Sequence record: PZ445428.1
Source: a phage
Reading direction: 5' to 3' (one strand)
DNA: 64,000 nucleotides
The translations under genes were made by a program, and so were the position numbers. Position 1 is the first letter of the stretch, and each line of letters starts with the position of its first letter. Positions 8,064-62,363 of this stretch are shown one piece after another. The notes beneath the pieces are model-generated. The model did no database searches. It saw only the letters and a list, made by a program, of their open reading frames with translations, and was not told where the DNA came from.

Positions 8064-8837
8064 TTATTTTTTCTCCAATAGTTCTTTAATCGACAGGATT
8101 TCTATCCCATTCGTTTCGGCTTTCTTATAAGATGAGGAAGAACGCTTTGATTCATCCTCACAGATGAGGTAGTTTACGTCTTTGGTAACGGACTTCTTAA
8201 CCGTATATCCTAGACTTTCTAAGTAGTTTGTTGCATCCGTTCTATTTGCAAAATCTTGCAAAGAACCGGTAATACATACCACGATTCCGTTCGGTTGAGC
8301 AACTAAATCATCGATAAAGATGATATCAGCTTTTGTGCCCCGAATACCAGAACTAAATTTCCATGGTAGTTCGATAACATCCTTGCCTTGTGGGGAATTT
8401 AGCCAGGCTTTATAATTTTCTCCAGCTTTGCCGTCAGCCTTAACATCATTAAAACTAATGCAACCCTGGGATAGCTTTTTAGCAGCAACCTCTCCAATCA
8501 GAGGGATTCCTAAAGAACCGAGAACTGAACCAAAGTCAATGTCTCCGCGAACCTTAGTATTTAACTCGCTAATTAACTTAGCGGCAACCTTACTTCCCAC
8601 AGCTCCGACCAAATCTTCTTCGGTCAGGTAAAACAGTTCTGAGATCTTAGTCAGTTCCAGCTTTTCAATTGTTTTCGGGCCAAAGCCCTTTAACTTCATC
8701 TTTGTGCAGAAGTTCTCAATTAACTTACTTGACTGAGCTGGACAGTTGGACTTATTCCGACAGAATAATTGTCCGTTGACAAGATCTAGCTTAGAACCAC
8801 AAGAGGGACATTGTGTTGGAATTTCGATTTTCATCAA
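8064..8837 (-). CDS. ligB: NAD-dependent DNA ligase, C-terminal subunit (Zn finger, HhH, BRCT)
   Basis: CPSCGSKLDLVNGQLFCRNKSNCPAQ zinc finger followed by HhH-like and BRCT-like segments; located downstream of the adenylation subunit. Confidence 0.75.
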   Translation of the reverse strand: MMKIEIPTQCPSCGSKLDLVNGQLFCRNKSNCPAQSSKLIENFCTKMKLKGFGPKTIEKLELTKISELFYLTEEDLVGAVGSKVAAKLISELNTKVRGDIDFGSVLGSLGIPLIGEVAAKKLSQGCISFNDVKADGKAGENYKAWLNSPQGKDVIELPWKFSSGIRGTKADIIFIDDLVAQPNGIVVCITGSLQDFANRTDATNYLESLGYTVKKSVTKDVNYLICEDESKRSSSSYKKAETNGIEILSIKELLEKK

Positions 8838-8864
8838 ATTTCTTCCTTATCAATTTATATAACT

Positions 8865-8893
8865 ATTATAGCAAGTATTTAAGCATTTAGCAA
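8865..8893 (-). promoter_or_regulatory. sigma70 promoter between the two ligase genes
   Basis: Reverse complement reads TTGCTAaatgcttaaatacttgcTATAAT then ATAAATTGATAAGGAAG. Confidence 0.6.
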
Positions 8894-9040
8894 CTACAAT
8901 TTTAACTAACTTTGCTTACCCTCGCCATAACTTTCTATCCCTCAACTGAATGATAATAGTATATACCTAAGCGGCGAAAATGTCAATAACCACTTTATAA
9001 TTCCGACATGGGAAACGGGTAGCAAAGGGTTATGAATTAC

Positions 9041-10054
9041 TTAATCTACTCGCTCTACAATACATGGGATTACACCACCAGCACGAATCACTCGAATCTG
9101 GCAACCGATCTCTAAATCGAGAGCGTTAATGTAATCAACGTTATTGAGAGTTGCTTTAATAATCTTGGCATCGTCAATAATTACCGGTTCGAAATATCCA
9201 ACAGGAGTTACTTTACCAGAAGCCCCTACCTGCCACTCAACTTTGAGAAGAGTTGTAATTTCGCCTTCTTCATCTTGTTTAATTGCATAAGCACCACGAG
9301 GATGTTTATTTGTCCAACCTTCACGGAAGAATTTGTTGTTGTCATTAATACGAACAACTTTACCATCCATTGGATACCAGTTGAAGTAGTTTTTAATATT
9401 CAGTACAGTGATGAAATCTTCGTTAGCTAACCAAGACATATCATCTAAGTAAGAGCCTGTAATACCTACAGAATCTTCGGAACACTGAATACCATAAGCT
9501 ACAAAGATCAATCCACCTTCCGCAATACGTTCGATGAAGTCATCTTCTTCTTTTAAGTTAATAGCACCAGAAGCGTAGTTACGTTTGTTTTCTACTTCTT
9601 TAGTGATAAGAACTTCACCAGTGATTTGAGTTGGTACTTTCTGAGAAATCTTTTTCGGAATGTTCAGCAATCTAACGTTGCTTGTGACATCATTTCCTAG
9701 AATACCATTACCACGAGTTAACGCTTGAACAAACGTTCCGTCGATATACAACAGAGAAATTGCGCAACCGTCTAGCTTATCAGTTTCTACATCATCAAGA
9801 GTAGTGAATGGAGCTTTATCACCCCGATCGAAGTAAACTTTCTGCAAAGAATACATACGATACAGATGTGGGATATCACCTTTCGGACCGATGGCATCTT
9901 CCGCTGTTGGGAAACGTTTAAGCAGACGATCATACTCAGCATCAGAGATAATACTATAACCCTGATAATACGCTTCTTGACAACGTTGGATAAACTCTTT
10001 TACATTATTCATCGTCGGCGATTTCCATCTTGAGTTCTTTATTATACTGCGCAA
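9041..10054 (-). CDS. ligA: NAD-dependent DNA ligase, N-terminal adenylation/OB subunit
   Basis: KxDG adenylation motif in VETDKLDGCAISLLY; 337 aa. Confidence 0.8.
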   Translation of the reverse strand: MRSIIKNSRWKSPTMNNVKEFIQRCQEAYYQGYSIISDAEYDRLLKRFPTAEDAIGPKGDIPHLYRMYSLQKVYFDRGDKAPFTTLDDVETDKLDGCAISLLYIDGTFVQALTRGNGILGNDVTSNVRLLNIPKKISQKVPTQITGEVLITKEVENKRNYASGAINLKEEDDFIERIAEGGLIFVAYGIQCSEDSVGITGSYLDDMSWLANEDFITVLNIKNYFNWYPMDGKVVRINDNNKFFREGWTNKHPRGAYAIKQDEEGEITTLLKVEWQVGASGKVTPVGYFEPVIIDDAKIIKATLNNVDYINALDLEIGCQIRVIRAGGVIPCIVERVD

Positions 10055-17658: not shown

Positions 17659-17821
17659 ATTCTTCCTCCTTAATCAGGAATTCTTTCCATTCTGCTGTAT
17701 CCTCATAGATAACGCAGAAATCATCACTCTTGCACGAGAAATCATCAGTAGCATATTCAAAACGGTAGCACCAACTACCATCTGGCCATACTAAAAGATC
17801 ACACATGCTTTTGCGGTGCAT
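17639..17821 (-). CDS. hypothetical small acidic protein
   Basis: 60-aa ORF overlapping neighbours by about 20 nt. Confidence 0.35.
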   Translation of the reverse strand: MHRKSMCDLLVWPDGSWCYRFEYATDDFSCKSDDFCVIYEDTAEWKEFLIKEEEYGEEDF

Positions 17822-18575
17822 AAATAGTTCCTTCCATAAAAGCCCCTACTTGGCCAATAAAGTGTTTGTTACCAAAAACTTCGGCAGCCCCAGCACGCCA
17901 TACAGTAACACCACGTTTCTCATACAAGGACTGTTCTAAGTAGTTGATAGTTGGGTTAACAACCATCATCTTAGTACCCCGTGCCACCGCAGGAAATAGT
18001 TCCCAGTTGAAGTTGATAACTTGGTTACTGCACCCAACCACGATAACCATATCATTAGCCGTAAGACTATCGAAAGTAGCGTTCATCAAAGCGTATTCAG
18101 GGGCTACTTCACCGAAGAATACAACGTTAGGCTTAGCCCAATAAAACTCATCAGGATCTATGGCAGTATAACCCACATCTAGGATATACTCTTTTCGATC
18201 TGGCAATTCCTTAATACGAACTTCTGGTAAATAACCATGAACGTGTAGAACTTCACTTTTTGGCACACCAGCCCTTTCCAGTAGATCATCCACGTTAGTA
18301 GTGATGTTCAGTACAGTCTCTGGATATCGTTGGAACCACTCCCCAATGCGGAGATGCGCAATGTTAGGTTCAACAGTCTGCAATTCCTGACGACGCTTGT
18401 TGTAGAACTCGTGGGTTTTCCAGTAGAACTGTCCACGGAAAGCATGAATATCACATACTTCTTCCAGATCGTATTCATCCCACATTGCCTTGCCACTAGC
18501 AGTATCTGTACGGAATGCACGGATACCACTATCAACACTTAAACCTGCACCACTAACAATAATTAGTCTACGCAT
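17799..18575 (-). CDS. SIR2-family (sirtuin-like) NAD-dependent protein
   Basis: N-terminal IVSGAGLSVDSGIRAFR matches the sirtuin GAGxSxxxGIPxFR NAD-binding motif. Confidence 0.65.
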   Translation of the reverse strand: MRRLIIVSGAGLSVDSGIRAFRTDTASGKAMWDEYDLEEVCDIHAFRGQFYWKTHEFYNKRRQELQTVEPNIAHLRIGEWFQRYPETVLNITTNVDDLLERAGVPKSEVLHVHGYLPEVRIKELPDRKEYILDVGYTAIDPDEFYWAKPNVVFFGEVAPEYALMNATFDSLTANDMVIVVGCSNQVINFNWELFPAVARGTKMMVVNPTINYLEQSLYEKRGVTVWRAGAAEVFGNKHFIGQVGAFMEGTIYAPQKHV

Positions 18576-22660: not shown

Positions 22661-22689
22661 TTGCATAATGACTCAAAACAAAGTAGAAT
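22661..22689 (+). promoter_or_regulatory. sigma70 promoter for nrdA
   Basis: TTGCATaatgactcaaaacaaagTAGAAT. Confidence 0.45.
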
Positions 22690-22727
22690 ATTTCCTAAAT
22701 CCTGAGAACTACAAAAAGGAAACTGCA

Positions 22728-25061
22728 ATGGACTTTCGAATCACAAAAGTAATTAAACGCGACGGTACGATCCAGGACTTTGCTCCTGAAAAACTCAACG
22801 ACTGGGCTGCGTGGGCATGTAAGAATGCTAACGTTAGCTGGTCTGCCGTAGTTATGGCTGCACTGAAAAATCTACCTAAAGGGGTTGTAGATTCCGATAC
22901 ACTTCAAGATGTATTAATCAAAGCAGCAGAAGGTTTGATCAAAGATAACCCTGCGTATGATGAAGTAGCGAAGGAATTACGTCTTGCACAGATGCGTAAA
23001 CGCCTGTATGATTCCTATGAACCACCTTCTTTACGTTTCTTCCATGACCACATGGTTAAAGTTGGGGCTTGGGAAGATATGAGTGCATGGATTTCCGATG
23101 AACAGTTTGACGCTTTGAATGGTGTTATTGATCATGAACGTGATCGTCTCTTCACTAGCGGTGGTCTGAAACAGTTCTTCGATAAGTATTCCCGTCGTAA
23201 TATCGCAACTGGCGAAATTTACGAAACCCCGCAATTTGCCTACATGGGTATGGCAATGGCGATGTTATCTCAACCTAACTGGACAATTCTGGATGCAATC
23301 GACCTCTACAATGCAATGTCGCTCCATAAAATCAACGTTCCTACTCCGCCACTGGTTGGTCTGCGCTCTAGTGACCGTGGATTTGCTAGTTGCTGCCTCG
23401 TGGATTCCACGGACACGCTGGATTCAATCGACACAGCCGAGCACATCGTTTTCAAAATGGTCGCAGCCAGAGCGGGAATCGGGTATCATCTTGAAAGCCG
23501 ATCAATTGCTGATCCGGTGCGAAATGGGGCGTTCCCGCATTCCGGAAAACTGCCATATTATAGACACATCGACCGTTCAGTAAAAGCGAACACTCAGCAA
23601 ACCCGTGGTGGTTCTGCTACTGTATCTTATCCGTACTTCGATCCTGAAATCATTCAGTTGATGCAGGTTAAACAGCAACGTGCTACAGACGAGAACAAAA
23701 TCGATAAGATGGACTACTCTCTGAGCTTTAACAACCTTCTATTGAAACGTTATCTGAAAAACGAAGATATTACGCTCATGTCTTACTTCTATGCACCAGA
23801 AGTCCACGAAGCGTTTTATGGGGAAGATGAGGCTAAGTTTGAAGAAATCTATGTGGCAGCGGAGAAACGTGTGGCATCTCTTACAAAGATCGACCACGAA
23901 GGAAAAACAATTCCAGCAGCTCCTAAAATCCCTGCAAAAGAAATCCTAGATACTTGGTTACGTATCCGTATGGAAACAGGTCGTATGTACGCTCATCACA
24001 TTGGGGAATCTAACCGTCATGGTAACTTCCTTGACCCGATTCGTATGACCAACCTTTGTGTAGAGATTACCCAGCCAACTCGTCCATTCCAGCACATTAC
24101 GGAACTGTACAAAACTCCAGATCAACTGGATGATATGCGTCCAGAAGATATTGGTGAAGTATCTCTGTGTAACCTGGGTGGTGTTGTTCTAGGCCGTATG
24201 AGTTCTCTGGCAGAATGGGAGAAAACTTGCTACATCCTTCTGAAATTCGTTGATACTATCATTGAAATTCAGGACTATCCGTTCCCAACTATGGAATACA
24301 CGGCTAAGAAGCGTCGTAACGTAGGTATTGGTCTGATGAATGCAGCAGGTGCAATGGCAGCAGAAGGTCTGGCTTACGAAGGTGAAGAAGCTCGTAACTG
24401 GATTCACCGTGAAGCTGAGAAGCTCTCTTACTTCCTGCATAAAGCCTCTGTACGTCTGGCAAAAGAACAAGGTGCATGTGATTGGTTTAACCGTACCAAA
24501 CCTTCTCAAGGAACTCTGGTAATCGACACCTATAAGAAAACTGTTGATGAACTGGTATCCGTAGGTCTAGAAATGGATTGGGAATCTCTGCGTGCAGATA
24601 TCCTGAAATACGGTATGCGTAACTCTGTTCTGACAGCTCAGATGCCTGGTGAAAGTTCTTCTGTACTGTTAGGTGTTACCAACTCAATTGAGCCACCTCG
24701 TAAGATTGTATCTATCAAGGGTAGTGCAGTGAACAAAGTAATTGCAATTGCTCCAGGTGCAACTGATTGGGATACTCTCATGAGCTATAAACTAGCCTAT
24801 GATGTAGATCGCATTGAGTGGATCAAGTGGGTAGCAACTATGCAGAAATTCTTCAGCCAGTCTATTAGTACGAACATGTACTATGACTACACCAAGTTTG
24901 AGAATGAAATCATTCCTGGCCCAGTAGTAGTTCGTGATTTCATGACTGCTGTTAAGTACGGATGGAAGACTTGGTACTACGCTAACTTCAACACTGAAAA
25001 CGGTGGTGGAGCAGGTGAAGAAGCCGCAGCTGGTTGTGCATCAGGTGGTTGCCAACTTTAA
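22728..25061 (+). CDS. nrdA: ribonucleoside-diphosphate reductase alpha subunit (class Ia)
   Basis: ATP-cone start MDFRITKVIKRDG; active-site TNLCVEI; C-terminal CASGGCQL. Confidence 0.9.
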   Translation: MDFRITKVIKRDGTIQDFAPEKLNDWAAWACKNANVSWSAVVMAALKNLPKGVVDSDTLQDVLIKAAEGLIKDNPAYDEVAKELRLAQMRKRLYDSYEPPSLRFFHDHMVKVGAWEDMSAWISDEQFDALNGVIDHERDRLFTSGGLKQFFDKYSRRNIATGEIYETPQFAYMGMAMAMLSQPNWTILDAIDLYNAMSLHKINVPTPPLVGLRSSDRGFASCCLVDSTDTLDSIDTAEHIVFKMVAARAGIGYHLESRSIADPVRNGAFPHSGKLPYYRHIDRSVKANTQQTRGGSATVSYPYFDPEIIQLMQVKQQRATDENKIDKMDYSLSFNNLLLKRYLKNEDITLMSYFYAPEVHEAFYGEDEAKFEEIYVAAEKRVASLTKIDHEGKTIPAAPKIPAKEILDTWLRIRMETGRMYAHHIGESNRHGNFLDPIRMTNLCVEITQPTRPFQHITELYKTPDQLDDMRPEDIGEVSLCNLGGVVLGRMSSLAEWEKTCYILLKFVDTIIEIQDYPFPTMEYTAKKRRNVGIGLMNAAGAMAAEGLAYEGEEARNWIHREAEKLSYFLHKASVRLAKEQGACDWFNRTKPSQGTLVIDTYKKTVDELVSVGLEMDWESLRADILKYGMRNSVLTAQMPGESSSVLLGVTNSIEPPRKIVSIKGSAVNKVIAIAPGATDWDTLMSYKLAYDVDRIEWIKWVATMQKFFSQSISTNMYYDYTKFENEIIPGPVVVRDFMTAVKYGWKTWYYANFNTENGGGAGEEAAAGCASGGCQL

Positions 25062-25107: not shown

Positions 25108-25136
25108 TTGCTAATCGCGACCTGATTTGCTATAAT
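25108..25136 (+). promoter_or_regulatory. sigma70 promoter for the HNH endonuclease gene
   Basis: TTGCTAatcgcgacctgatttgcTATAAT. Confidence 0.6.
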
Positions 25137-25160: not shown

Positions 25161-25679
25161 GTGAAACCTCAATTAACAAAAGAATTTCTAGAGAAATACC
25201 TAGAACTCAGAGAAGATACACTCTATTGGAAGCCAAGAGAAACTAACAAGGGTGGATTTAACACTAGATTTGCTGGAAAACCTGTAGGAGCCGTCAATGG
25301 AAATGGCTACCTATGCTTCCGACTTAATGTGGAAGGTTATAGATGGGAGTTAAGAAATCATGTAGTAATCTTCTGTCTCTATTATGGATATTACCCTACT
25401 AAGACAGTAGATCATAAAGATACAAATAAACTTAATAACCACCCTTTAAGTCTAAGGGAATCAACCGATGCTGGTAACGCCCAAAATAGAGGAGCTGGTA
25501 AAAACAATACTCATGGGCATAAAAACCTAGAGCCTCTTAGTTCAGGAAACTGGAGGGTTAGGATAACACACAACGGTACTGTTTATAGATCTTCCGCAAT
25601 GCCTTTAGAAAAAGCTCTAGAACATAGAGATATTAAACTTAAAGAATTTCATGGTGAATACGCTAATAATGGAGAATAA
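25161..25679 (+). CDS. HNH homing endonuclease, free-standing between nrdA and nrdB
   Basis: GTG start after AAGGAGA; NUMOD-like YWKPRE...GYLCFRL and HNH region TVDHKDTNKLNNHPLSLRE. Confidence 0.7.
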   Translation: MKPQLTKEFLEKYLELREDTLYWKPRETNKGGFNTRFAGKPVGAVNGNGYLCFRLNVEGYRWELRNHVVIFCLYYGYYPTKTVDHKDTNKLNNHPLSLRESTDAGNAQNRGAGKNNTHGHKNLEPLSSGNWRVRITHNGTVYRSSAMPLEKALEHRDIKLKEFHGEYANNGE

Positions 25680-25682
25680 TTA

Positions 25683-26828
25683 ATGACAACCTTACTAAAT
25701 CTGAACTGGAATCCTGATTCTGAAGAGCTATTTCTGGGTGATGCTTTGGGAGTAGCAGACTATGTTCGTGTTGCTCATCCAGAGCTAGAACGACTTGCAC
25801 TATTGCAGAGGAGCCAGTTTTGGACTGAAACAGAAATCAGTCTAGAAAGTGACAAAAAGCAATGGCCTAATCTCCCAAGAGAAATACAAGAAATCACTCT
25901 GCTGAATTTAGCTTGGCAGGTTCAAACAGATTCATTTATTAGTAGAGCACCAGAAGCCGCAGTACTTCCTTTGGTTAGTCGCCCTGAGTTAGAGGGAATG
26001 CTAAAGCAGTGGAGCTACTTCGAAGATCTGCACAGCCGTGCTTATAGCAACATTATCCGTAACGTTCTGACTGATCCAGCAGAATTTATCGATTCTGTTA
26101 CAAAAAACCAAGAAGCATTCGCACGTATCGCTGATTCCGTAGAACTGTTCGATGAACTGTATCAATTAGGTCAGTATTTCATCGCAGTACGTGACCATCG
26201 TGGTGACAATACTTATCCAGAAACCGAGTTTCCTGAAGTTAAACGTGAAACTCAGGCTAAACTGTTAGATGCCTATTTTGCAATCTATGGTCTGGAAGCA
26301 ATGCAGTTCTACGCATCTTTTGCTTGTACCTTTGCTCTAGCAGAAAACGATATTCTGCAAGGTATTGCTAAGAACCTGCAATTGATTGCTAAAGATGAAG
26401 CTCTGCATACTCAAATGTCCAAAGCAGTTATCCAGATCATGTTCCAGCAGTTCGACCAAGATCTGATTGATGAAGCTCTGGCTAAAGCACCAGCGCAGCT
26501 TTTGAAAACTCTGCAAACTGAAATCAACTGGGGCCACTTTATCTTTAAAGGCCGTAGTCTGATTGGTCTGAACGCAGAACTTCTGGAAGAATACCTTTAC
26601 TTTGTAGGACGTAACGCATTTATGCATATTGGCGTAGAATGGCCGAGCAATCTGCCAGTAATTACTAAGAACCCAATTCCGTGGATCATGAACTGGCTGG
26701 ATACTACCTCTTTACAACCTGCTCCACAGGAAATCCAGATTGGTGCAGCTTATCGTGTAGGTCAGGTAACTGAGACTTCAACTGATACCTTGAAAGACCT
26801 GGGTAATGAATTTGAGGGCATGTTCTAA
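25683..26828 (+). CDS. nrdB: ribonucleoside-diphosphate reductase beta subunit
   Basis: 381 aa; di-iron ligand motif KDEALHT. Confidence 0.9.
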   Translation: MTTLLNLNWNPDSEELFLGDALGVADYVRVAHPELERLALLQRSQFWTETEISLESDKKQWPNLPREIQEITLLNLAWQVQTDSFISRAPEAAVLPLVSRPELEGMLKQWSYFEDLHSRAYSNIIRNVLTDPAEFIDSVTKNQEAFARIADSVELFDELYQLGQYFIAVRDHRGDNTYPETEFPEVKRETQAKLLDAYFAIYGLEAMQFYASFACTFALAENDILQGIAKNLQLIAKDEALHTQMSKAVIQIMFQQFDQDLIDEALAKAPAQLLKTLQTEINWGHFIFKGRSLIGLNAELLEEYLYFVGRNAFMHIGVEWPSNLPVITKNPIPWIMNWLDTTSLQPAPQEIQIGAAYRVGQVTETSTDTLKDLGNEFEGMF

Positions 26829-36457: not shown

Positions 36458-37402
36458 ATGTTTACTAAAAACACTAAAGAACTAACTTCTGAACAAAAAG
36501 TAATTCGTACTATTAAACGTTGGGGTGTTGGTGCTGTAGTTGGTCTTGGTGCTCTTATTCTGGCTCTCAATTCCTATACAGTTGTTCAGGACGGTACTGT
36601 AAAGACTCAGACATTCTTGGGTAAAGTTAACCCGAACCCTGTACTGCCAGGGTTTCACATTGTCAACCCATTCGCTTCTTTTGATACTTTTAGTACGAAA
36701 GATATTTCCATGAAACTGGATAAGCTTCAGGTTCCTAGCCAGGATAAGTTTAAGTCCACTGTTGATATTACTGTTATGTTGCAGTTCGATGGTGCTAAAG
36801 CTCCGATGAACCGTGTTAACGCAGGTACTCAGGATCAGGCGCTGAACAAGTATGTTGAAGAGAAGATGCTGTCTACTATCCGTGAATTTGGTAAGTCTGT
36901 ACCGAAAGCACAGGATCTGTTCGACGCTAAGATTCAGGCACAGCTGCAAACTGCAATTCAGCAGGAAGTTGAAGAATATGCTCGTCCTTATGGTTACACC
37001 GTGAAGCAAGTATTCCTTCAGGATATTACACTTCCGCCAGTAATCATGGAACAGGTTCAGAACACAAAAGTTCGTGAAGAACAAGTTAACGCCGCTAAAG
37101 CTGAACTAGCTCGTGTTGAACAAGAAGCACAGCAGAAAGTTAAGCAAGCTGAAGCAGATCGTTCTGCTCGTGAAAACATGGCAGTAGCTAACGAACGTGA
37201 CGCAGATGCTAAACTGTACGCAGCTAAGAAAGAAGCTGAAGCTAACGCCGCACTGCAACGTACCATTACCCCTGAAATGATTCGTTGGAAACAGCTGGAA
37301 GTTGAAATGCTTCGTGCTGAGAAATATCAGGGTGGTGTACCGCAGACTGTAGTTGGTACTGGTTATGATGGCCAGATGATCATGGATATGCGTAACAAGT
37401 AA
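36458..37402 (+). CDS. SPFH/band-7 (stomatin/prohibitin-like) membrane protein
   Basis: N-terminal TM segment, SPFH-like core, long C-terminal coiled coil (EQEAQQKVKQAEADR). Confidence 0.6.
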   Translation: MFTKNTKELTSEQKVIRTIKRWGVGAVVGLGALILALNSYTVVQDGTVKTQTFLGKVNPNPVLPGFHIVNPFASFDTFSTKDISMKLDKLQVPSQDKFKSTVDITVMLQFDGAKAPMNRVNAGTQDQALNKYVEEKMLSTIREFGKSVPKAQDLFDAKIQAQLQTAIQQEVEEYARPYGYTVKQVFLQDITLPPVIMEQVQNTKVREEQVNAAKAELARVEQEAQQKVKQAEADRSARENMAVANERDADAKLYAAKKEAEANAALQRTITPEMIRWKQLEVEMLRAEKYQGGVPQTVVGTGYDGQMIMDMRNK

Positions 37403-38170: not shown

Positions 38171-39166
38171 TTAAGCTGGCAGCTTAGCTTGTAGGCCAGC
38201 CAGCGTCTGAGTGATAGCACCTAGGCTAACAGCGATCTGGTTGATTACCTGACCGTTTGCACCACTACCCTGAGCGATTGCTTCGCGTAGACGACATTCG
38301 TTCAGTTCGTCCTGGATACGCGCAGTAGTTACACCAGCGATCGCAGACTGAAGTTCACAGCAGCACTCAGCAATCTGACGTTCCAGAGAGTTCTGGTTAG
38401 CACACATCTGAGCCTGAACAGCGGCGAACTGGTTGTTTGTCTGGATAGACTGAGCAAAAGAGATCTGTGCAGCATCAAACTTGTCCTGTGCACGAGCGAT
38501 CTGGTTAGCAGCGAAAGCTTGATCCATCTGACGAGAAAGATCGAACTGACCCTGAATAACGTTACGAGTTTCCTGACAGATCTGGTTGGACAGGTTAGCA
38601 CCAGTACCATACACAGTAGTCAGAATCTGTTGAGTGCTAGAAGCTTGAGCAGCACCTACACCATTAACAGCGTTTAGAACAGCACCAGTACCTTGATTTG
38701 CTTCAGTACGAGTAGTGTTGATTGCAGCTAGAATACTTGCAGTATCCTGGTTGGAAAGGATAGCGTCCACAGCAGTTCCCTCAGTGGCAACACCAGCACC
38801 ACGACCTAAACCACCGAAACCACCGAATCCGCCTGTTAATAGAGCACCAATCAGGATAGCTCCGAATAGACCCATACCTTCACCACCGAAAGCACCCTGT
38901 GCAGCAGCTGGGTAACCACCCATCAGACCTGGGAAGCCGCTAGTGAATACGTTTACTGGTTCTTGCATTTTATGTTTCCTATGTTTATGACAGCCCTCAT
39001 GGTCGTCATCTTCTTCATCGTCATCATCGTGATCACGATGTTTCTTTTCGTAGGCTTTGACCTTCTCCCACTTATGTTTGTCTGATTCCTCATGACGTCT
39101 CAGTTCTGCTGCGACTTCACTTACGGTCTCAGGTTTCTTAGTTACTTCATCTGTCATTTTTGACAC
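38171..39166 (-). CDS. hypothetical protein: His/Asp-rich N-terminus, glycine-zipper hydrophobic segment, Ala/Gln-rich C-terminus
   Basis: 331 aa; HRDHDDDDEEDDDHEGCHKHRKHK, then GLFGAILIGALLTGGFGGFGGLG, then a Q/A-rich helical region with CCC cluster. Confidence 0.55.
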   Translation of the reverse strand: MSKMTDEVTKKPETVSEVAAELRRHEESDKHKWEKVKAYEKKHRDHDDDDEEDDDHEGCHKHRKHKMQEPVNVFTSGFPGLMGGYPAAAQGAFGGEGMGLFGAILIGALLTGGFGGFGGLGRGAGVATEGTAVDAILSNQDTASILAAINTTRTEANQGTGAVLNAVNGVGAAQASSTQQILTTVYGTGANLSNQICQETRNVIQGQFDLSRQMDQAFAANQIARAQDKFDAAQISFAQSIQTNNQFAAVQAQMCANQNSLERQIAECCCELQSAIAGVTTARIQDELNECRLREAIAQGSGANGQVINQIAVSLGAITQTLAGLQAKLPA

Positions 39167-39248: not shown

Positions 39249-39364
39249 GGGTCTTTAAAAATTGCCCCCGGATTTTTATTGGGGTAATAATTTTGGGGTC
39301 TGCCCACTCACCTGCTACCCTTAAGTGCCCTACTATTTTCCTACAAAAAGTTTAAAAATTCGAT

Positions 39365-39392
39365 TGCTTGAACGCTAAATTCTCTGTATAAT
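39365..39392 (+). promoter_or_regulatory. sigma70 early promoter
   Basis: TTGCTTgaacgctaaattctctgTATAAT. Confidence 0.6.
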
Positions 39393-39423: not shown

Positions 39424-39888
39424 ATGAACAAGTTCAAAGGCATTCGAGTTATTCCTTGTCTTATTCCTAAAACCTTCAAAAGATTCGCTGAATGGCGTGG
39501 TGATGAAGAAGAACTTAGTCATTGCTTCCATAAATATAAAGAAATAGAGTGTGAACCACGTTTCAATCGTCCAGGTCTTTACATGGATCGTATTAACAAA
39601 GAAGCATGGTACGAACTAGAAATGCTTGATGGTACTATTCGAGCTTTCAGCACAGAATATGAGCATCAAGAATGGGTCTGGAAGTATAAGTACTCTCACG
39701 GTGATCGTATTCTGAACAAAGGCGAATATGAAGAAATGCGCCGTATGTTCCAACTATATAACGTGCCTCTAGAGCAGCAGCCAGATGTATACAGAGCTAG
39801 CCGTGAATACTGGCATGATAAAGCAATAGGACGAGATATGGAGTTGTGTTTACTTCGTTCTTCTAAACGAAAAGCTGAGAAGGAATAA
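39424..39888 (+). CDS. hypothetical protein
   Basis: 154-aa ORF. Confidence 0.5.
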   Translation: MNKFKGIRVIPCLIPKTFKRFAEWRGDEEELSHCFHKYKEIECEPRFNRPGLYMDRINKEAWYELEMLDGTIRAFSTEYEHQEWVWKYKYSHGDRILNKGEYEEMRRMFQLYNVPLEQQPDVYRASREYWHDKAIGRDMELCLLRSSKRKAEKE

Positions 39889-39893
39889 AAATA

Positions 39894-40184
39894 ATGAAAC
39901 ACTACGCAGAACGTGAAATTGATGAATTAGACTTTGCTGGCGGGTTTTATTCCACCCATGTTAGTGCTATGACCGCAGAAGGACTTAATTCTAAGTCGGC
40001 TATTGCGGCAGAATTAGCATTTCGTGATTTTACTATTGCTGAAATGCAAGAGCATATTATGCGACTAGAGAATCAGGTGGATGAACTCCTGAAGCACAAT
40101 GAGGAACTAGGTGAAGATCTCCATGAACTCACAGAAGAACGTGATACTCTTTACATGAAGTTAGCCGGTCATGAATCTTTTTAA
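39894..40184 (+). CDS. hypothetical protein
   Basis: 96-aa ORF. Confidence 0.5.
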   Translation: MKHYAEREIDELDFAGGFYSTHVSAMTAEGLNSKSAIAAELAFRDFTIAEMQEHIMRLENQVDELLKHNEELGEDLHELTEERDTLYMKLAGHESF

Positions 40185-40190
40185 ATTTAT

Positions 40191-40219
40191 TTGCTAAATA
40201 ACTTGAATTTCTATATAAT
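40191..40219 (+). promoter_or_regulatory. sigma70 early promoter
   Basis: TTGCTAaataacttgaatttctaTATAAT then ATAAATTTGAGAGAGGAAG. Confidence 0.6.
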
Positions 40220-40249
40220 ATACTTATAAATTTGAGAGAGGAAGCAAAT

Positions 40250-41314
40250 ATGATTAAGACTGGTCTAGTAATTGGTAAATTCGCACCATTAACTCGTGGT
40301 CATATCAACCTTATTAATACTGCGGCGACAATGTGTGAGCGCGTTATCGTTGTAGTTAGCCACGACAATCGTTGGCTGGATAAGCAAAACTCTAGGGATC
40401 AAGAAGTCCTACAGTTGAAGAATCGTTTACGATGGCTTGAGCAGACTTATGCAGATATTGAGCATGTGGAAATCCACGATCTTATCGAAGATGATATTCC
40501 TGAGTACCCTAATGGATGGGAAGCATATACCAAGATACTCCAGGAGTGTTATGGTATGTATCCTGAAATCACTATCTTTTCTAGTGAAATTGGGTATGAT
40601 GCGGAGTACAAAAAGTATCTGCCAAACTTCGGCCATTATATTGTAGACTCGGAACGCACTCGTGTACCAATCTCTGCTACTATGATTCGTGAGAATCTGA
40701 TGAAGTATTGGGAGTTCCTGCCTAGCATAGTTCGTAAAGACTATGTTCGCAAGGTAGTTGTTATCGGTACTGAAAGCTCTGGCAAGACAACTTTAACAAA
40801 GTATCTTGCGAAGTTATATAATACTTCATGGGTTGAAGAGTATGGTCGTACATACTGTGAAGTTGACTTAGTAGGCAACGAAAGCCTACTGACTAGCGAC
40901 GACTACACGAAGATTGCATTTAGGCACAAAGAGCTAGAGTTTGAAGCAGAATGTACTGCAAATAAGATCATGTTTGTGGATACCAATGCTTTCATTACTG
41001 AGTTCTACCATAGACTCTACGAACATCGTAAGAATCCTGTGGTTACGGCTATTGCGAAAGAAGAACATTACGATTTAGTTATTGTTCTAGCACCTACTGT
41101 GAAGTGGGTAGATGATGGTTTACGTATTAACTCAGATCGTTCTATTACTTCAGAACTATTCGAGCAGATGAAGGAGGAGTTCCCTAACCAATTCCCAGAG
41201 GGACGCACTGTTTATATCGACTCACCGGACTACAAAGTTCGTATGGACGAAGCTGTAAATGCTGTAGACTGGTTAATTCATTATGTTGACGCGGGAGCTA
41301 TCCAATATGACTAA
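40250..41314 (+). CDS. nadR: bifunctional NMN adenylyltransferase / ribosylnicotinamide kinase (NadR-like, no HTH)
   Basis: GKFAPLTRGHINLI, NRLRWL, YPNGWEAY, ISATMIRENLMKYWEFLP and kinase P-loop VVVIGTESSGKTTL align along E. coli NadR. Confidence 0.85.
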   Translation: MIKTGLVIGKFAPLTRGHINLINTAATMCERVIVVVSHDNRWLDKQNSRDQEVLQLKNRLRWLEQTYADIEHVEIHDLIEDDIPEYPNGWEAYTKILQECYGMYPEITIFSSEIGYDAEYKKYLPNFGHYIVDSERTRVPISATMIRENLMKYWEFLPSIVRKDYVRKVVVIGTESSGKTTLTKYLAKLYNTSWVEEYGRTYCEVDLVGNESLLTSDDYTKIAFRHKELEFEAECTANKIMFVDTNAFITEFYHRLYEHRKNPVVTAIAKEEHYDLVIVLAPTVKWVDDGLRINSDRSITSELFEQMKEEFPNQFPEGRTVYIDSPDYKVRMDEAVNAVDWLIHYVDAGAIQYD

Positions 41315-41984
41315 TTATCTTGTAAATGACTTTAAAAACTGGAAACCTCTGGAATATCTGTGGCTGTTCATTGCAGTGGCCTTCATTAGTTTGGCTAACT
41401 ATAATGGTACAGCACTAGATTGGGCAACAGCAATCACCAACGTTGTTTGTGTTATTCTGGTTGCAAAGGGGCGTGTTTCTAACTATGTCTGGGGTTTGGT
41501 AGGTGTTCTGACCTACGGAATTACAGCTCTAAATGCTGATCTTTATGGTAACGCAGCGCTAAACCTGTTGTACTACGTCCCTATGCAGTTCTACGGAATG
41601 TACTTGTGGCATAAAAATAAGCCAAGTAATCTGCCGGATGTTCCAACTAAAGTTCTGACAAAAGCTCAAGCTTTGCTGACTCTAGGGATTTTAGCAGTAG
41701 CAACATTAGGTTATGGTAGTTTCCTTGCTACTACGGCTGATCCATTCCCAATGTTAGACGCATTTACCGCGGTTGGCAGTGTGATTGCTATGTGGCTTAT
41801 GGTTAAGCAGTATGCTGAACAGTGGCTGATCTGGATTGCCATTAACTTTGGTACTGTGTACATCTGGCTTGTAACTGCCCAATCTACGGGTGCATCTTAC
41901 GCAATCCTGGCAATGTGGCTGGTATTCTTAGGTAACTCTATTATGGGAGCCTATAAAGGCTACTTTGTAAGAGTTAACAAGTAA
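41307..41984 (+). CDS. pnuC: nicotinamide riboside transporter PnuC
   Basis: Multi-TM protein; DAFTAVGSVIAMWLMVKQYAEQWLIWIAINFGTVYIWL matches the PnuC conserved core. Confidence 0.8.
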   Translation: MTNYLVNDFKNWKPLEYLWLFIAVAFISLANYNGTALDWATAITNVVCVILVAKGRVSNYVWGLVGVLTYGITALNADLYGNAALNLLYYVPMQFYGMYLWHKNKPSNLPDVPTKVLTKAQALLTLGILAVATLGYGSFLATTADPFPMLDAFTAVGSVIAMWLMVKQYAEQWLIWIAINFGTVYIWLVTAQSTGASYAILAMWLVFLGNSIMGAYKGYFVRVNK

Positions 41985-41993
41985 TTGAATTTA

Positions 41994-42014
41994 TAGCCCT
42001 CTACCTGAGGGCTA
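41994..42014 (+). terminator. hairpin after pnuC
   Basis: AGCCCTC-tacct-GAGGGCT with a weak T-run. Confidence 0.4.
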
Positions 42015-42033
42015 TTATACAGAAAATTTCACT

Positions 42034-42061
42034 TGCTAATTGCCGAAATTTTCTGTATAAT
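42034..42061 (+). promoter_or_regulatory. sigma70 promoter driving tRNAs
   Basis: TTGCTAattgccgaaattttctgTATAAT; tRNA-Ser starts about 15 nt downstream. Confidence 0.6.
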
Positions 42062-42075
42062 ATATTCATAAATTC

Positions 42076-42169
42076 GGAAGATTAACCCTAAAGGTAAGGG
42101 AGTTGTTTGCTAAACAACCAGTAGCTGTGGAGACACGGTGTATCAGTTCGAGTCTGGTATCTTCCTCCA
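42076..42169 (+). tRNA. tRNA-Ser (GCT)
   Basis: Acceptor GGAAGAT/ATCTTCC, anticodon loop TTGCTAA, long variable arm, T-arm ATCAG-TTCGAGT-CTGGT, CCA. Confidence 0.8.
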
Positions 42170-42176
42170 AATTCAT

Positions 42177-42254
42177 GGTTCCTTAGCTCAATCAGGTTAG
42201 AGCATTCCCCTCATAAGGGACAGGTTCTCGGATCATACCCGAGAGGAGCCACCA
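42177..42254 (+). tRNA. tRNA with CAT anticodon (Met or Ile2)
   Basis: Acceptor GGTTCCT/AGGAGCC, D-arm GCTC...GAGC, loop CTCATAA, atypical T-loop ATCATAC, CCA. Confidence 0.65.
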
Positions 42255-42271: not shown

Positions 42272-42460
42272 ATGTCTAAATTCCAAGAACTAATGAGAGA
42301 GTTGGGTGAGCATCGCTGCAAGGATTGTTATGGGTCTGGAGAGCAAAACGATGCAGAGCCTGGAGATACTCGATTCAATAAGTGGACTTGTCCTACCTGC
42401 GAAGGTACAGGTATCAACCCTCTTTACACTATTTCTATCTACGTGGGAATTGCTAAATAA
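42272..42460 (+). CDS. zinc-ribbon small protein
   Basis: CKDCYGSG...CPTCEGTG; 62 aa. Confidence 0.45.
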   Translation: MSKFQELMRELGEHRCKDCYGSGEQNDAEPGDTRFNKWTCPTCEGTGINPLYTISIYVGIAK

Positions 42461-62296: not shown

Positions 62297-62363
62297 AACT
62301 TCAGTTGCTAAAATGCTTTAATTTCTGTATAATTACTTTATAAATTGATGAGAAGGAATCAAA

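What the first reader, a model, noticed from the sequence alone, without database searches (positions are those of the whole stretch)
40250..41984. Phage-encoded NAD+ salvage pair: NadR-like enzyme plus PnuC transporter
Two co-transcribed, overlapping genes encode a PnuC nicotinamide-riboside transporter and a NadR-type NMN adenylyltransferase / ribosylnicotinamide kinase that lacks the regulatory HTH domain. Together they could import nicotinamide riboside and rebuild NAD+ during infection, which would counter NAD+-depleting abortive-infection systems. The same window also carries a SIR2-like protein (17799-18575).
Basis: partly seen in the sequence, partly recalled or inferred. Interest (0 to 1): 0.75.

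Follow-up and report, generated by a model that had tools for sequence, protein, structure and literature searches.

The report
Known phage NadR–PnuC NAD+ salvage operon
A T5-like coliphage (BASEL phage TrudiGerster) carries an intact two-gene cassette for importing nicotinamide riboside and turning it into NAD+, but the cassette is already annotated, and its proposed role against NAD+-depleting defences has been published but I found no test of it.

Summary
The window is 100% identical to Escherichia phage TrudiGerster (BASEL Bas27, Epseptimavirus). At 40250-41314 (+) lies an HTH-less NadR-type enzyme combining NMN adenylyltransferase and ribosylnicotinamide kinase. At 41307-41984 (+) lies a PnuC nicotinamide riboside transporter, and the two genes overlap by 8 nt. 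Profile, sequence and fold matches are all strong, the catalytic motifs are intact, and both genes are under strong purifying selection (dN/dS 0.04 and 0.03). The pair has its own T5-type early promoter and a hairpin at its 3' end.

None of this is new. GenBank already annotates both genes. More than 200 Epseptimavirus genomes carry the pair, and the same pairing recurs in five unrelated phage lineages. A roughly 90%-identical orthologue has a solved structure (PDB 9x6f/9x6h). Osterman et al. 2024 point to this NadR+PnuC operon in BASEL phages as a hypothetical NAD+ reconstitution pathway that they did not test. Iyer et al. 2022 list phage NadR among the NAD+-synthesis enzymes they propose as counters to NADase effectors.

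The anti-defence role therefore remains an untested hypothesis. It has a real caveat: the pathway needs external nicotinamide riboside and cannot recycle ADPR plus nicotinamide. A rival role is supplying the phage's own NAD+-dependent ligase and Sir2-like protein, both encoded in the window.

The parts
40191..40219 (+). T5-type early promoter (TTGCTA-17 nt-TATAAT) dedicated to the cassette
   Evidence: It matches the sigma-70 consensus at 10 of 12 positions. The motif TTGCT[A/T]-17-TATAAT occurs 24 times in the window against 0.74 expected, always in the direction of the local genes. It is conserved upstream of the orthologue in Salmonella phage BSP22A.
40227..40245 (+). Conserved leader TAAATTTGAGAGAGGA with the ribosome-binding site GAGAGAGGAAG, 5 nt before the ATG
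   Evidence: Read from the sequence. The leader motif occurs 12 times in the window against 1.26 expected, mostly just downstream of T5-type promoters. It is conserved in BSP22A.
40250..41314 (+). NadR-like bifunctional enzyme, 354 aa, with no HTH. The NMN adenylyltransferase domain spans about aa 1-160 and the ribosylnicotinamide kinase domain about aa 166-345.
   Evidence: Pfam, NCBIfam and PHROG hits. PDB matches to 9x6f (1.3e-218), 8x7f, 1lw7 and 6gye. AF2 model with pLDDT 93.6 and TM-score 0.84 to NadR 8x7f across both domains. Motifs GKFAPLTRGH, ISATMIR, GTESSGKT, FVDT and DDGLR are present, with their key residues conserved across 45 homologues. dN/dS is 0.043.
40268..40693 (+). Cytidylyltransferase-like (HIGH nucleotidyltransferase) domain, aa 7-148
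   Evidence: PF01467, 3.6e-08, 34.1 bits against a cutoff of 21.
40751..41191 (+). AAA_28 P-loop kinase domain, aa 168-314
   Evidence: PF13521, 1.8e-30, 106.8 bits against a cutoff of 27.
41307..41984 (+). PnuC nicotinamide riboside transporter, 225 aa; its start overlaps the NadR stop by 8 nt
   Evidence: PF04973 at 1.1e-42 and TIGR01528 at 117.7 bits against 42.45. phrog_1880 at 3e-74. 4qtn PnuC at 4.3e-32 over residues 9-215, with the SNYxxG and EQWxxWxxxN stretches aligned. dN/dS is 0.026.
41993..42015 (+). 9-bp GC-rich hairpin just after the PnuC stop; a possible terminator or 3'-end stabiliser, without a clean U-run
   Evidence: Folding gives -15.4 kcal/mol, z = -4.76, and none of 200 shuffles fold as well. 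The consensus terminator scan did not call it.
42033..42061 (+). Next T5-type promoter, in front of tRNA-Ser(GCU) and tRNA-Met(CAU); marks the 3' boundary of the cassette
9041..10012 (-). Context: NAD-dependent DNA ligase subunit A, which consumes NAD+ and releases NMN
   Evidence: GenBank annotation of the identical record. The reaction products are established knowledge of NAD-dependent ligases.
8064..8834 (-). Context: NAD-dependent DNA ligase subunit B
   Evidence: GenBank annotation.
17799..18575 (-). Context: canonical (CobB-like) Sir2 family protein, a potential NAD+ consumer
   Evidence: PF02146 at 2.3e-23. phrog_2162 at 1e-104. The closest solved structure is E. coli CobB, 1s5p, at 6e-19.

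Best explanation
This is a functional two-gene nicotinamide riboside (NR) salvage cassette expressed from a T5-type early promoter. PnuC inserts into the inner membrane and lets NR in by facilitated diffusion. The HTH-less NadR-like enzyme traps NR by phosphorylating it to NMN in its C-terminal P-loop kinase domain. Its N-terminal HIGH-type nucleotidyltransferase domain then adenylylates NMN to NAD+. The NMN can come from imported NR or from NMN released inside the cell by the phage's NAD-dependent ligase. The net effect is to keep the NAD+ pool of the infected cell up, at a cost of two ATP per NR. Shown here: family membership, intact motifs, full-length NadR fold, purifying selection, a dedicated promoter, and conserved pairing across phage lineages. 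Inferred: the enzyme and transport activities, the timing of expression, and the benefit to the phage. That benefit could be supply for the phage's own NAD+-using enzymes, buffering against NAD+ depletion, or both.
For: Profile hits sit above the curated cutoffs for Pfam AAA_28, CTP_transf_like and NMN_transporter and for NCBIfam PRK08099 (NadR) and TIGR01528 (PnuC). PHROG families 3462 and 1880 match at 9e-148 and 3e-74. Sequence matches reach solved NadR structures, including a roughly 90%-identical phage orthologue (9x6f/9x6h), and PnuC 4qtn. The AF2 model (pLDDT 93.6) superposes on NadR 8x7f, 1lw7 and 6gye across both domains, with TM-scores of 0.75-0.84. G9, K10, F11, G17, H18, R147, G173, E175, G178, K179 and D244 are invariant in 45 homologues. 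dN/dS against phage BSP22A is 0.043 for NadR and 0.026 for PnuC. A T5-type promoter and leader lie immediately upstream and are conserved in BSP22A, the genes overlap by 8 nt, and a hairpin follows. NadR and PnuC lie on the same strand, adjacent in four and about 1.3 kb apart in the fifth, in 5 of 5 distant phages from other lineages.
Against: No activity, transport or expression was measured here. TIGR01526 (nadR_NMN_Atrans) scores 272.7 bits, below its 341.15 cutoff. The enterobacterial PnuC subfamily model NF011926 is far below its cutoff (66 against 335), so substrate specificity rests on the general PnuC equivalog model and on linkage to NadR. T5 itself lacks the pair yet keeps the ligase region, so the cassette is dispensable for the basic T5-type life cycle.
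Confidence: 0.85

Rival explanations
1. Anti-defence reading (the first reader's, and that of Osterman et al. 2024 and Iyer et al. 2022). The main selective benefit of the cassette is to overcome NAD+-depleting abortive-infection systems such as SIR2-HerA, DSR1/2, Thoeris and other TIR or SIR2 NADases. It would do so by rebuilding NAD+ from imported NR faster than the NADase removes it.
For: The cassette is accessory and sits in a variable slot: it is absent from T5 and flanked differently in BSP22A, which is typical of host-interaction genes. The hypothesis is published for this operon in BASEL phages and for phage NadR in general. NARP1 and NARP2 show that phage NAD+ synthesis can defeat such systems. 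No other NAD+ synthesis gene is annotated in the genome.
Against: It is untested; Osterman et al. state that the operon 'was not examined'. Searches of the held literature found no experimental test. NadR and PnuC cannot use ADPR or nicotinamide, the products of SIR2 and TIR NADases, so rescue would depend wholly on external NR. New NAD+ would still be exposed to the active NADase; this follows from established pathway knowledge. E. coli already has its own pnuC and nadR.
Confidence: 0.35
2. Self-supply reading (Stitch genome note, 2015). The cassette mainly feeds the phage's own NAD+-consuming enzymes. The two-subunit NAD-dependent DNA ligase releases NMN with every nick it seals, and NadR could re-adenylylate that NMN directly. 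The CobB-like Sir2 protein is a second consumer. This would speed replication of a nicked 114-kb genome regardless of any defence system.
For: Ligase subunits A and B (8064-10012, -) and a canonical sirtuin (17799-18575, -) lie in the same early region. The NMN adenylyltransferase motifs are intact. This explanation was proposed for the EPS7-like phage Stitch. Like the replication genes, the cassette sits behind a T5-type promoter.
Against: T5 keeps the ligase and replicates well without the cassette. This reading explains NadR but not why a transporter is always linked to it. Nothing has been measured.
Confidence: 0.3
3. Different-substrate reading. The PnuC-like protein carries another nucleoside or vitamin, as the Pnu relatives for thiamine, riboflavin or deoxynucleosides do, and the kinase domain acts on that compound rather than on NR.
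For: The enterobacterial PnuC subfamily model and TIGR01526 both score below their cutoffs. The Pnu family is known to include other specificities (established knowledge, not tested here).
Against: The PnuC equivalog model TIGR01528 scores well above its cutoff. The alignment to the NR-bound transporter 4qtn keeps the conserved SNYxxG and EQWxxWxxxN stretches. The NadR fold and both motif sets are intact. The orthologue's PDB entry is named nicotinamide-nucleotide adenylyltransferase.
Confidence: 0.04
4. Decaying passenger genes with no function for the phage.
For: The pair is absent from T5.
Against: dN/dS is 0.043 and 0.026 at substantial synonymous divergence. The ORFs are intact in more than 200 Epseptimavirus records. 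The promoter and ribosome-binding site are conserved.
Confidence: 0.01

Closest known systems
NadR+PnuC operon of other Epseptimavirus phages (EPS7, Stitch, S114/S147, BSP22A and the BASEL T5-like phages); PDB 9x6f/9x6h
   Same: These are orthologues. NadR is about 90% identical and PnuC about 98%, with the same gene order, promoter and leader. The PDB chain 9x6f is 100% identical over its residues 7-355 to the Salmonella phage S114/S147 protein. The window itself is the published genome MZ501108.1, with both genes annotated.
   Different: The TrudiGerster NadR allele is more divergent than its PnuC (dS 1.48 against 0.34). Its C-terminal tail differs, so the genes overlap by 8 nt instead of being separated by 1 nt. 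The upstream neighbours also differ.
Haemophilus influenzae NadR (1LW7) plus PnuC (Neisseria mucosa structure 4QTN): the bacterial NR 'V-factor' salvage route
   Same: The two-domain NMN adenylyltransferase plus ribosylnicotinamide kinase architecture is the same, with no working HTH, and so are the signature motifs. The fold TM-score is 0.80, and 0.84 to NadR 8x7f. PnuC is homologous over all helices.
   Different: Sequence identity to the solved bacterial NadRs is only about 28-34%. The phage genes form an overlapping operon behind a phage promoter, whereas the closest bacterial HTH-less homologue examined (58% identity, CP050253.1) is not next to pnuC.
E. coli/Salmonella trifunctional NadR
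   Same: It matches NCBIfam PRK08099 above the cutoff over model positions 65-406.
   Different: It lacks the N-terminal HTH repressor domain (model positions 1-64), so it cannot be a DNA-binding regulator of nadA, nadB or pncB.
Phage NAD+ reconstitution pathways NARP1 (Adps+Namat) and NARP2 (Nampt plus NMN adenylyltransferase; KVP40 NadV/NatV type)
   Same: All are two-gene phage modules that end in NAD+, and this one has been proposed as a possible further pathway of the same kind.
   Different: The enzymes and input are different. NARP1 and NARP2 rebuild NAD+ from the NADase products (ADPR and/or nicotinamide), whereas NadR and PnuC need imported NR. A counter-defence role is shown experimentally for NARP1 and NARP2 but not for NadR and PnuC.

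Membership tests
NadR family (bifunctional NMN adenylyltransferase / ribosylnicotinamide kinase) | N-terminal HIGH-type nucleotidyltransferase domain with the (H/T)xGH and ISxxxxR motifs | tested here: met
   PF01467 scores 34.1 bits against a cutoff of 21. GKFAPLTRGH and ISATMIR align to GKFYPLHTGH and ISGAQIR of NadR 8x7f. G9, K10, F11, G17, H18 and R147 are invariant in 45 homologues.
NadR family (bifunctional NMN adenylyltransferase / ribosylnicotinamide kinase) | C-terminal P-loop kinase domain (AAA_28) with Walker A and Walker B motifs | tested here: met
   PF13521 scores 106.8 bits against a cutoff of 27. GTESSGKT and FVDT are present; G173, E175, G178, K179 and D244 are invariant.
NadR family (bifunctional NMN adenylyltransferase / ribosylnicotinamide kinase) | Curated whole-protein model score | tested here: inconclusive
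   NF005988 (PRK08099 NadR) scores 259.6 bits, above its 201 cutoff. TIGR01526 (nadR_NMN_Atrans) scores 272.7 bits, below its 341.15 cutoff.
NadR family (bifunctional NMN adenylyltransferase / ribosylnicotinamide kinase) | Two-domain NadR fold | tested here: met
   The AF2 model has pLDDT 93.6. Foldseek gives TM-scores of 0.84 to 8x7f, 0.80 to 1lw7 and 0.75-0.77 to 6gye, 6gyf and 6gzo over about 350 columns.
NadR family (bifunctional NMN adenylyltransferase / ribosylnicotinamide kinase) | Catalytic activity (NR to NMN to NAD+) | not testable with these tools
   This needs enzyme assays. The orthologue's PDB entries 9x6f/9x6h are named nicotinamide-nucleotide adenylyltransferase, but no paper on them was found in the library.
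Trifunctional enterobacterial NadR (repressor form) | N-terminal HTH DNA-binding domain | tested here: not met
   The match to PRK08099 starts at model position 65 with protein residue 3. The ORF extends only 6 codons upstream of the ATG.
PnuC nicotinamide riboside transporter | Pfam NMN_transporter and NCBIfam PnuC equivalog above cutoff | tested here: met
   PF04973 scores 146.4 bits against 27.3. TIGR01528 scores 117.7 bits against 42.45.
PnuC nicotinamide riboside transporter | Homology to the solved NR-bound PnuC across the helices, with conserved signature stretches | tested here: met
   4qtn matches at 4.3e-32, residues 9-215 against 12-225. SNYVWG aligns to SNYLFG and EQWLIWIAIN to EQWALWIVVN.
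PnuC nicotinamide riboside transporter | Membership of the enterobacterial PnuC subfamily (the host type) | tested here: not met
   NF011926 scores 66.2 bits against a cutoff of 335, so the gene is not a recent copy of the host pnuC.
PnuC nicotinamide riboside transporter | NR transport | not testable with these tools
   This needs uptake or complementation assays.
Phage NAD+ reconstitution (counter-defence) pathways, NARP type | Deleting the module sensitises the phage to NAD+-depleting defence, and the module restores NAD+ during infection | not testable with these tools
   The source paper states this was not examined for NadR+PnuC. The literature searches found no later test.
Phage NAD+ reconstitution (counter-defence) pathways, NARP type | Uses the NADase products (ADPR and/or nicotinamide) as substrates | tested here: not met
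   The domain content is an NMN adenylyltransferase, an NR kinase and an NR transporter. No Nampt, Adps or Namat is annotated anywhere in the genome. That these enzymes use NR and NMN as substrates is established knowledge.

The most novel reading that the evidence does not exclude
NadR+PnuC would be a third kind of phage NAD+ reconstitution route, one that works by import rather than by recycling. Its power against SIR2- or TIR-type NAD+ depletion would then depend on the environment: NR, NMN or NAD+ in the gut, or released by neighbouring lysed cells. In T5-like phages it would also close an NMN-to-NAD+ loop for the phage's own NAD-dependent ligase. Bas27 and its relatives would be a ready experimental system. 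The idea is already in print, so only its demonstration and the dependence on environment would be new.
Probability: 0.3. Interest if true: 0.5.

Novelty: already known. Interest (0 to 1): 0.2.

Why it matters
NAD+ depletion is a common endpoint of bacterial immunity, and phage routes that rebuild NAD+ (NARP1 and NARP2) are a recent discovery. The NadR+PnuC operon is the obvious next candidate and is widespread: NadR-like genes occur in 792 of 50,697 phage records and PnuC in 504. Showing whether it rescues phages from SIR2- or TIR-type NADases, and whether that rescue depends on external nicotinamide riboside, would be useful. It would confirm a published hypothesis rather than reveal something unexpected. 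As a sequence finding this is a correctly read, already annotated auxiliary metabolic operon.

Tried and rejected
1. I looked for a paper on PDB 9x6f/9x6h and found none in the held library. The entries are also missing from the Foldseek PDB library, which covers entries first released up to 2026-04-08. They were therefore probably released later, and I could not obtain a description or release date.

2. I looked for experimental tests of phage NadR/PnuC against defence systems using five literature queries. They returned only the hypothesis statements.

3. I tested whether T5.076, which occupies the syntenic slot in T5, is homologous to the window ORF at 39424-39888. It is not (E = 0.12).

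4. I checked whether the two small upstream ORFs (39424-39888 and 39894-40184) have NAD-related domains. Neither has any significant Pfam domain, and both fall in PHROG families of unknown function. I do not count them as part of the module, and they have their own promoter at 39364-39392.

5. I considered a recent capture from the host and rejected it. PnuC fails the enterobacterial subfamily model, and NadR is only about 30% identical to the solved bacterial NadRs.

6. I considered pseudogenisation and rejected it on dN/dS.

7. The promoter-like hit inside NadR (40793-40822, 11 of 12 positions) is not the T5-type motif. The total count of generic sigma-70-like hits in the region equals the chance expectation (9 against 8.1), so I did not treat it as an internal promoter.
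Full report
**Identity of the window.** A megablast of 40000-42200 returns Escherichia phage TrudiGerster at 100% identity over the full query (MZ501108.1 / NC_105114.1; BASEL collection locus tags bas27_; Demerecviridae, Markadamsvirinae, Epseptimavirus). Window position equals record position minus 32480. The record already annotates bas27_0092 as 'putative nicotinamide-nucleotide adenylyltransferase' (window 40250-41314) and bas27_0093 as 'nicotinamide mononucleotide transporter' (window 41307-41984). A further 223 phage records, mostly Salmonella and Escherichia T5-like phages, carry the same stretch at 80-95% DNA identity with similar annotations.

**Check of the observation.** The ORF listing shows both reading frames on the + strand.

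- **Protein 1 (354 aa).** It hits Pfam AAA_28 (1.8e-30) and CTP_transf_like (3.6e-08), both above gathering score. It hits NCBIfam PRK08099 NadR at 259.6 bits against a cutoff of 201, aligned to model positions 65-406. It hits phrog_3462 at 8.8e-148. TIGR01526 is strong but below its cutoff (272.7 against 341.15).
- **No HTH.** The match starts at model position 65 and the ORF can be extended by only six codons upstream. The HTH repressor domain of enterobacterial NadR is therefore truly absent.
- **Protein 2.** It hits Pfam NMN_transporter (1.1e-42), TIGR01528 PnuC (117.7 bits against 42.45) and phrog_1880 (3.2e-74). It fails the enterobacterial PnuC subfamily model (66 against 335), so it is not a recent copy of the host gene.
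- **SIR2-like ORF.** The ORF at 17799-18575 (-) is real (PF02146, 2.3e-23). It is of the canonical sirtuin type, and its closest solved relative is E. coli CobB, 1s5p.

**Anatomy of the cassette.**

- **Promoter.** A T5-type early promoter, TTGCTA-17-TATAAT, lies at 40191-40219. This motif, allowing one mismatch, occurs 24 times in the window against 0.74 expected. Every copy points the way the local genes run.
- **Leader.** The promoter is followed by the leader TAAATTTGAGAGAGGA at 40227-40242. That motif is itself over-represented (12 matches against 1.26 expected) and contains the ribosome-binding site 5 nt before the ATG at 40250.
- **PnuC start.** The best candidate is the ATG at 41307. 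It has GGGAG 9 nt upstream, it is the GenBank start, and it corresponds to the start in phage BSP22A. It overlaps the NadR stop as ATGACTAA, an 8-nt overlap. The ATG at 41283 listed has no ribosome-binding site.
- **3' end.** Ten bases after the PnuC stop sits a 9-bp GC-rich hairpin at 41993-42015 (-15.4 kcal/mol, z = -4.76). The next T5-type promoter follows at 42033-42061, ahead of tRNA-Ser(GCU) and tRNA-Met(CAU).
- **Conclusion.** The pair is a self-contained two-gene transcription unit. Co-transcription is inferred from this layout, not measured.

**Are the proteins intact?**

- **NadR sequence matches.** phmmer against PDB sequences finds NadR from several sources: 8x7f at 1.6e-55, H. influenzae 1lw7 at 4.7e-54 and L. 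lactis 6gye at 2.1e-42. It also finds a phage orthologue, 9x6f/9x6h, at 1.3e-218.
- **NadR motifs.** The printed alignments show GKFAPLTRGH (an (H/T)xGH motif with Thr in place of the first His, which the superfamily allows), ISATMIR, the P-loop GTESSGKT, FVDT and WVDDGLR. All align to the corresponding H. influenzae-type residues.
- **NadR conservation.** In an alignment of 45 homologues at 45-90% identity, G9, K10, F11, G17, H18, R147, G173, E175, G178, K179 and D244 are invariant.
- **NadR fold.** An AlphaFold2 model built on that alignment has mean pLDDT 93.6. It superposes on full-length NadR structures with TM-scores of 0.84 (8x7f, with NAD), 0.80 (1lw7) and 0.75-0.77 (L. lactis NadR with NR or NAD).
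- **PnuC.** It aligns to the Neisseria mucosa NR transporter 4qtn over residues 9-215 (4.3e-32), with the SNYxxG and EQWxxWxxxN stretches conserved.
- **Selection.** Against the orthologues in Salmonella phage BSP22A, dN/dS is 0.043 for NadR (dS 1.48, 89.7% aa identity) and 0.026 for PnuC (dS 0.34, 98.7% aa identity). Both genes are under strong purifying selection.

**Distribution and context.**

- **Breadth.** tblastn finds NadR-like genes in 792 phage records and PnuC in 504, out of 50,697.
- **Linkage.** I opened five distant NadR-bearing phages: Aeromonas AhSzq-1 (Shenzhenvirus), Bacillus pW2, Cronobacter GAP31, Enterococcus A2 and Vibrio D30. In all five a PnuC gene lies on the same strand, adjacent in four and about 1.3 kb away in GAP31. 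The linkage is thus conserved across phage lineages, as Osterman et al. state.
- **T5 lacks the pair.** In T5 the syntenic slot runs from T5.077 (86% identical to window 38171-39166) to the tRNA-Ser/tRNA-Ile pair. It holds only T5.076, which is unrelated. This agrees with the Stitch genome note that the pair is 'found in EPS7 but not in T5'.
- **Variable flanks.** The flanks also differ in BSP22A, so the cassette sits in a variable accessory slot.
- **NAD+ consumers nearby.** The window encodes the two subunits of an NAD-dependent DNA ligase (8064-8834 and 9041-10012, -) and the Sir2-like protein.
- **No other NAD+ synthesis gene.** None, including Nampt/NadV and NadM, is annotated anywhere in the genome.
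- **Closest bacterial homologue.** The closest named homologue on a chromosome-length bacterial contig is an HTH-less NadR, 58% identical, on a 2.6-Mb chromosome (CP050253.1). It lies among core genes and is not next to pnuC.

**Mechanism.** From established knowledge of the bacterial PnuC/NadR route, PnuC is a facilitator and uptake is driven by NadR phosphorylating NR to NMN. The NMN adenylyltransferase domain then makes NAD+ from NMN and ATP. The phage proteins have everything this needs (shown: family, motifs, fold, selection). I infer that the cassette raises or sustains NAD+ in the infected cell, and I put 0.85 on that biochemical function. What the extra NAD+ is for is not decided by any data here.

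- **Anti-defence reading.** It is plausible because the cassette is accessory. But NadR and PnuC cannot use ADPR or nicotinamide, the products of SIR2 and TIR NADases. Rescue would therefore depend on external NR, unlike NARP1 and NARP2.
- **Self-supply reading.** NAD-dependent ligases release NMN, which NadR can turn straight back into NAD+. This fits the co-resident ligase, but it does not explain the obligatory transporter, and T5 manages without the cassette.
- **Both readings.** They are not exclusive. I give them about 0.35 and 0.30.

**Comparison with what is known.**

- Iyer et al. 2022 list phage NadR among the phage-encoded NAD+ synthesis enzymes that they propose counter NAD+ depletion by NADase effectors (PMC9503650).
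- Osterman et al. 2024 (bioRxiv 10.1101/2024.02.11.579819) say that phage NadR genes usually sit in an operon with PnuC. [quoted passage not shown]
- The 2015 Stitch note proposed the ligase-supply role.
- The PDB chain 9x6f is 100% identical over its residues 7-355 to the NadR-like protein of Salmonella phages S114 and S147. The orthologue has therefore been purified and solved. I found no paper on it in the library, and the entry is absent from the structure library that covers entries first released up to 2026-04-08.
- Five literature queries found no experimental test of the operon against a defence system.

**Verdict.** The proposed biological role repeats a published, still untested hypothesis. 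Novelty: already known. Interest is low (0.2). The only open point is the experiment itself, for which this BASEL phage would be a convenient system.

Noticed in passing
window, 24 sites, e.g. 8865-8893 (-), 25108-25136 (+), 40191-40219 (+), 42033-42061 (+), 62305-62333 (+): The extended T5-type early promoter TTGCT[A/T]-17 nt-TATAAT occurs 24 times against 0.74 expected. All copies lie on the - strand before about 21 kb and on the + strand after it, matching the divergent gene orientation. Many are followed by a shared leader, TAAATTTGAGAGAGGA (12 matches against 1.26 expected).
   Followed up: partly
window 40250-41984 compared with L011 (Salmonella phage BSP22A) 1546-3280: The two genes of the cassette have very different divergence from the common Epseptimavirus allele: NadR dS is 1.48 (89.7% aa identity) and PnuC dS is 0.34 (98.7% aa identity). 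The NadR C-terminal tail also differs (HYVDAGAIQYD against HHFNVGEF). This suggests a recombination breakpoint at or near the gene junction. Only the two TrudiGerster records match the stretch containing this allele at 99% identity or more.
   Followed up: partly
window 38171-39166 (-): A conserved 331-aa protein of unknown function (86% identical to T5.077; phrog_8119; no Pfam hit) with an odd composition. It has an acidic, His-rich N-terminus (HRDHDDDDEEDDDHEGCHKHRKHK), a Gly-rich hydrophobic segment, and a long Q/A/N-rich C-terminal part with a CCC motif. It is transcribed divergently from the NadR side.
   Followed up: partly
window 39424-40184 (+), compared with T5 (L003 17280-17798) and BSP22A (L011): The slot between the T5.077 homologue and the tRNA cluster is variable. 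TrudiGerster has two small ORFs of unknown function (154 aa in phrog_30487; 96 aa, coiled-coil-like, in phrog_34533) plus NadR-PnuC. T5 has only T5.076, annotated as TOPRIM/primase-like. BSP22A lacks the T5.077-079 homologues and has an extra 297-nt ORF after PnuC.
   Followed up: partly
window 36458-37402 (+): An SPFH/Band_7 domain protein (PF01145, 4e-19) that corresponds by position and annotation to the T5.080 'lipoprotein'. Phage-encoded SPFH proteins are little studied.
   Followed up: no
window 42272-42460 (+): A 62-aa Cys-rich protein between tRNA genes with CxxC...CxxCxGxG spacing. It gives sub-threshold hits to the Anti-TRAP and DnaJ_CXXCXGXG zinc-finger models (2e-05 each, below their cutoffs) and falls in phrog_6060, labelled 'anti-termination protein Q-like'.
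   Followed up: no
window 42076-42169 (+): GenBank annotates this tRNA-Ser as 'codon recognized: CGA', but ARAGORN reads the anticodon as GCT (codon AGC), as for T5 tRNA-Ser3(GCU). This looks like an annotation slip in the public record.
   Followed up: yes
window 25161-25679 (+): A putative homing endonuclease ORF sits between the ribonucleotide reductase alpha (22668-25061) and beta (25683-26828) subunit genes. T5 has an HNH endonuclease (hegH) next to nrdB in the equivalent place.
   Followed up: no
L009 4001-5050 (CP050253.1, a 2.6-Mb bacterial chromosome): A chromosomal HTH-less NadR, 349 aa and 58% identical to the phage protein. That is closer than any solved bacterial NadR (about 30%). 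It lies among core genes (lptF/lptG, pepA) and not next to pnuC, so it may be near the bacterial source lineage of the phage gene.
   Followed up: partly
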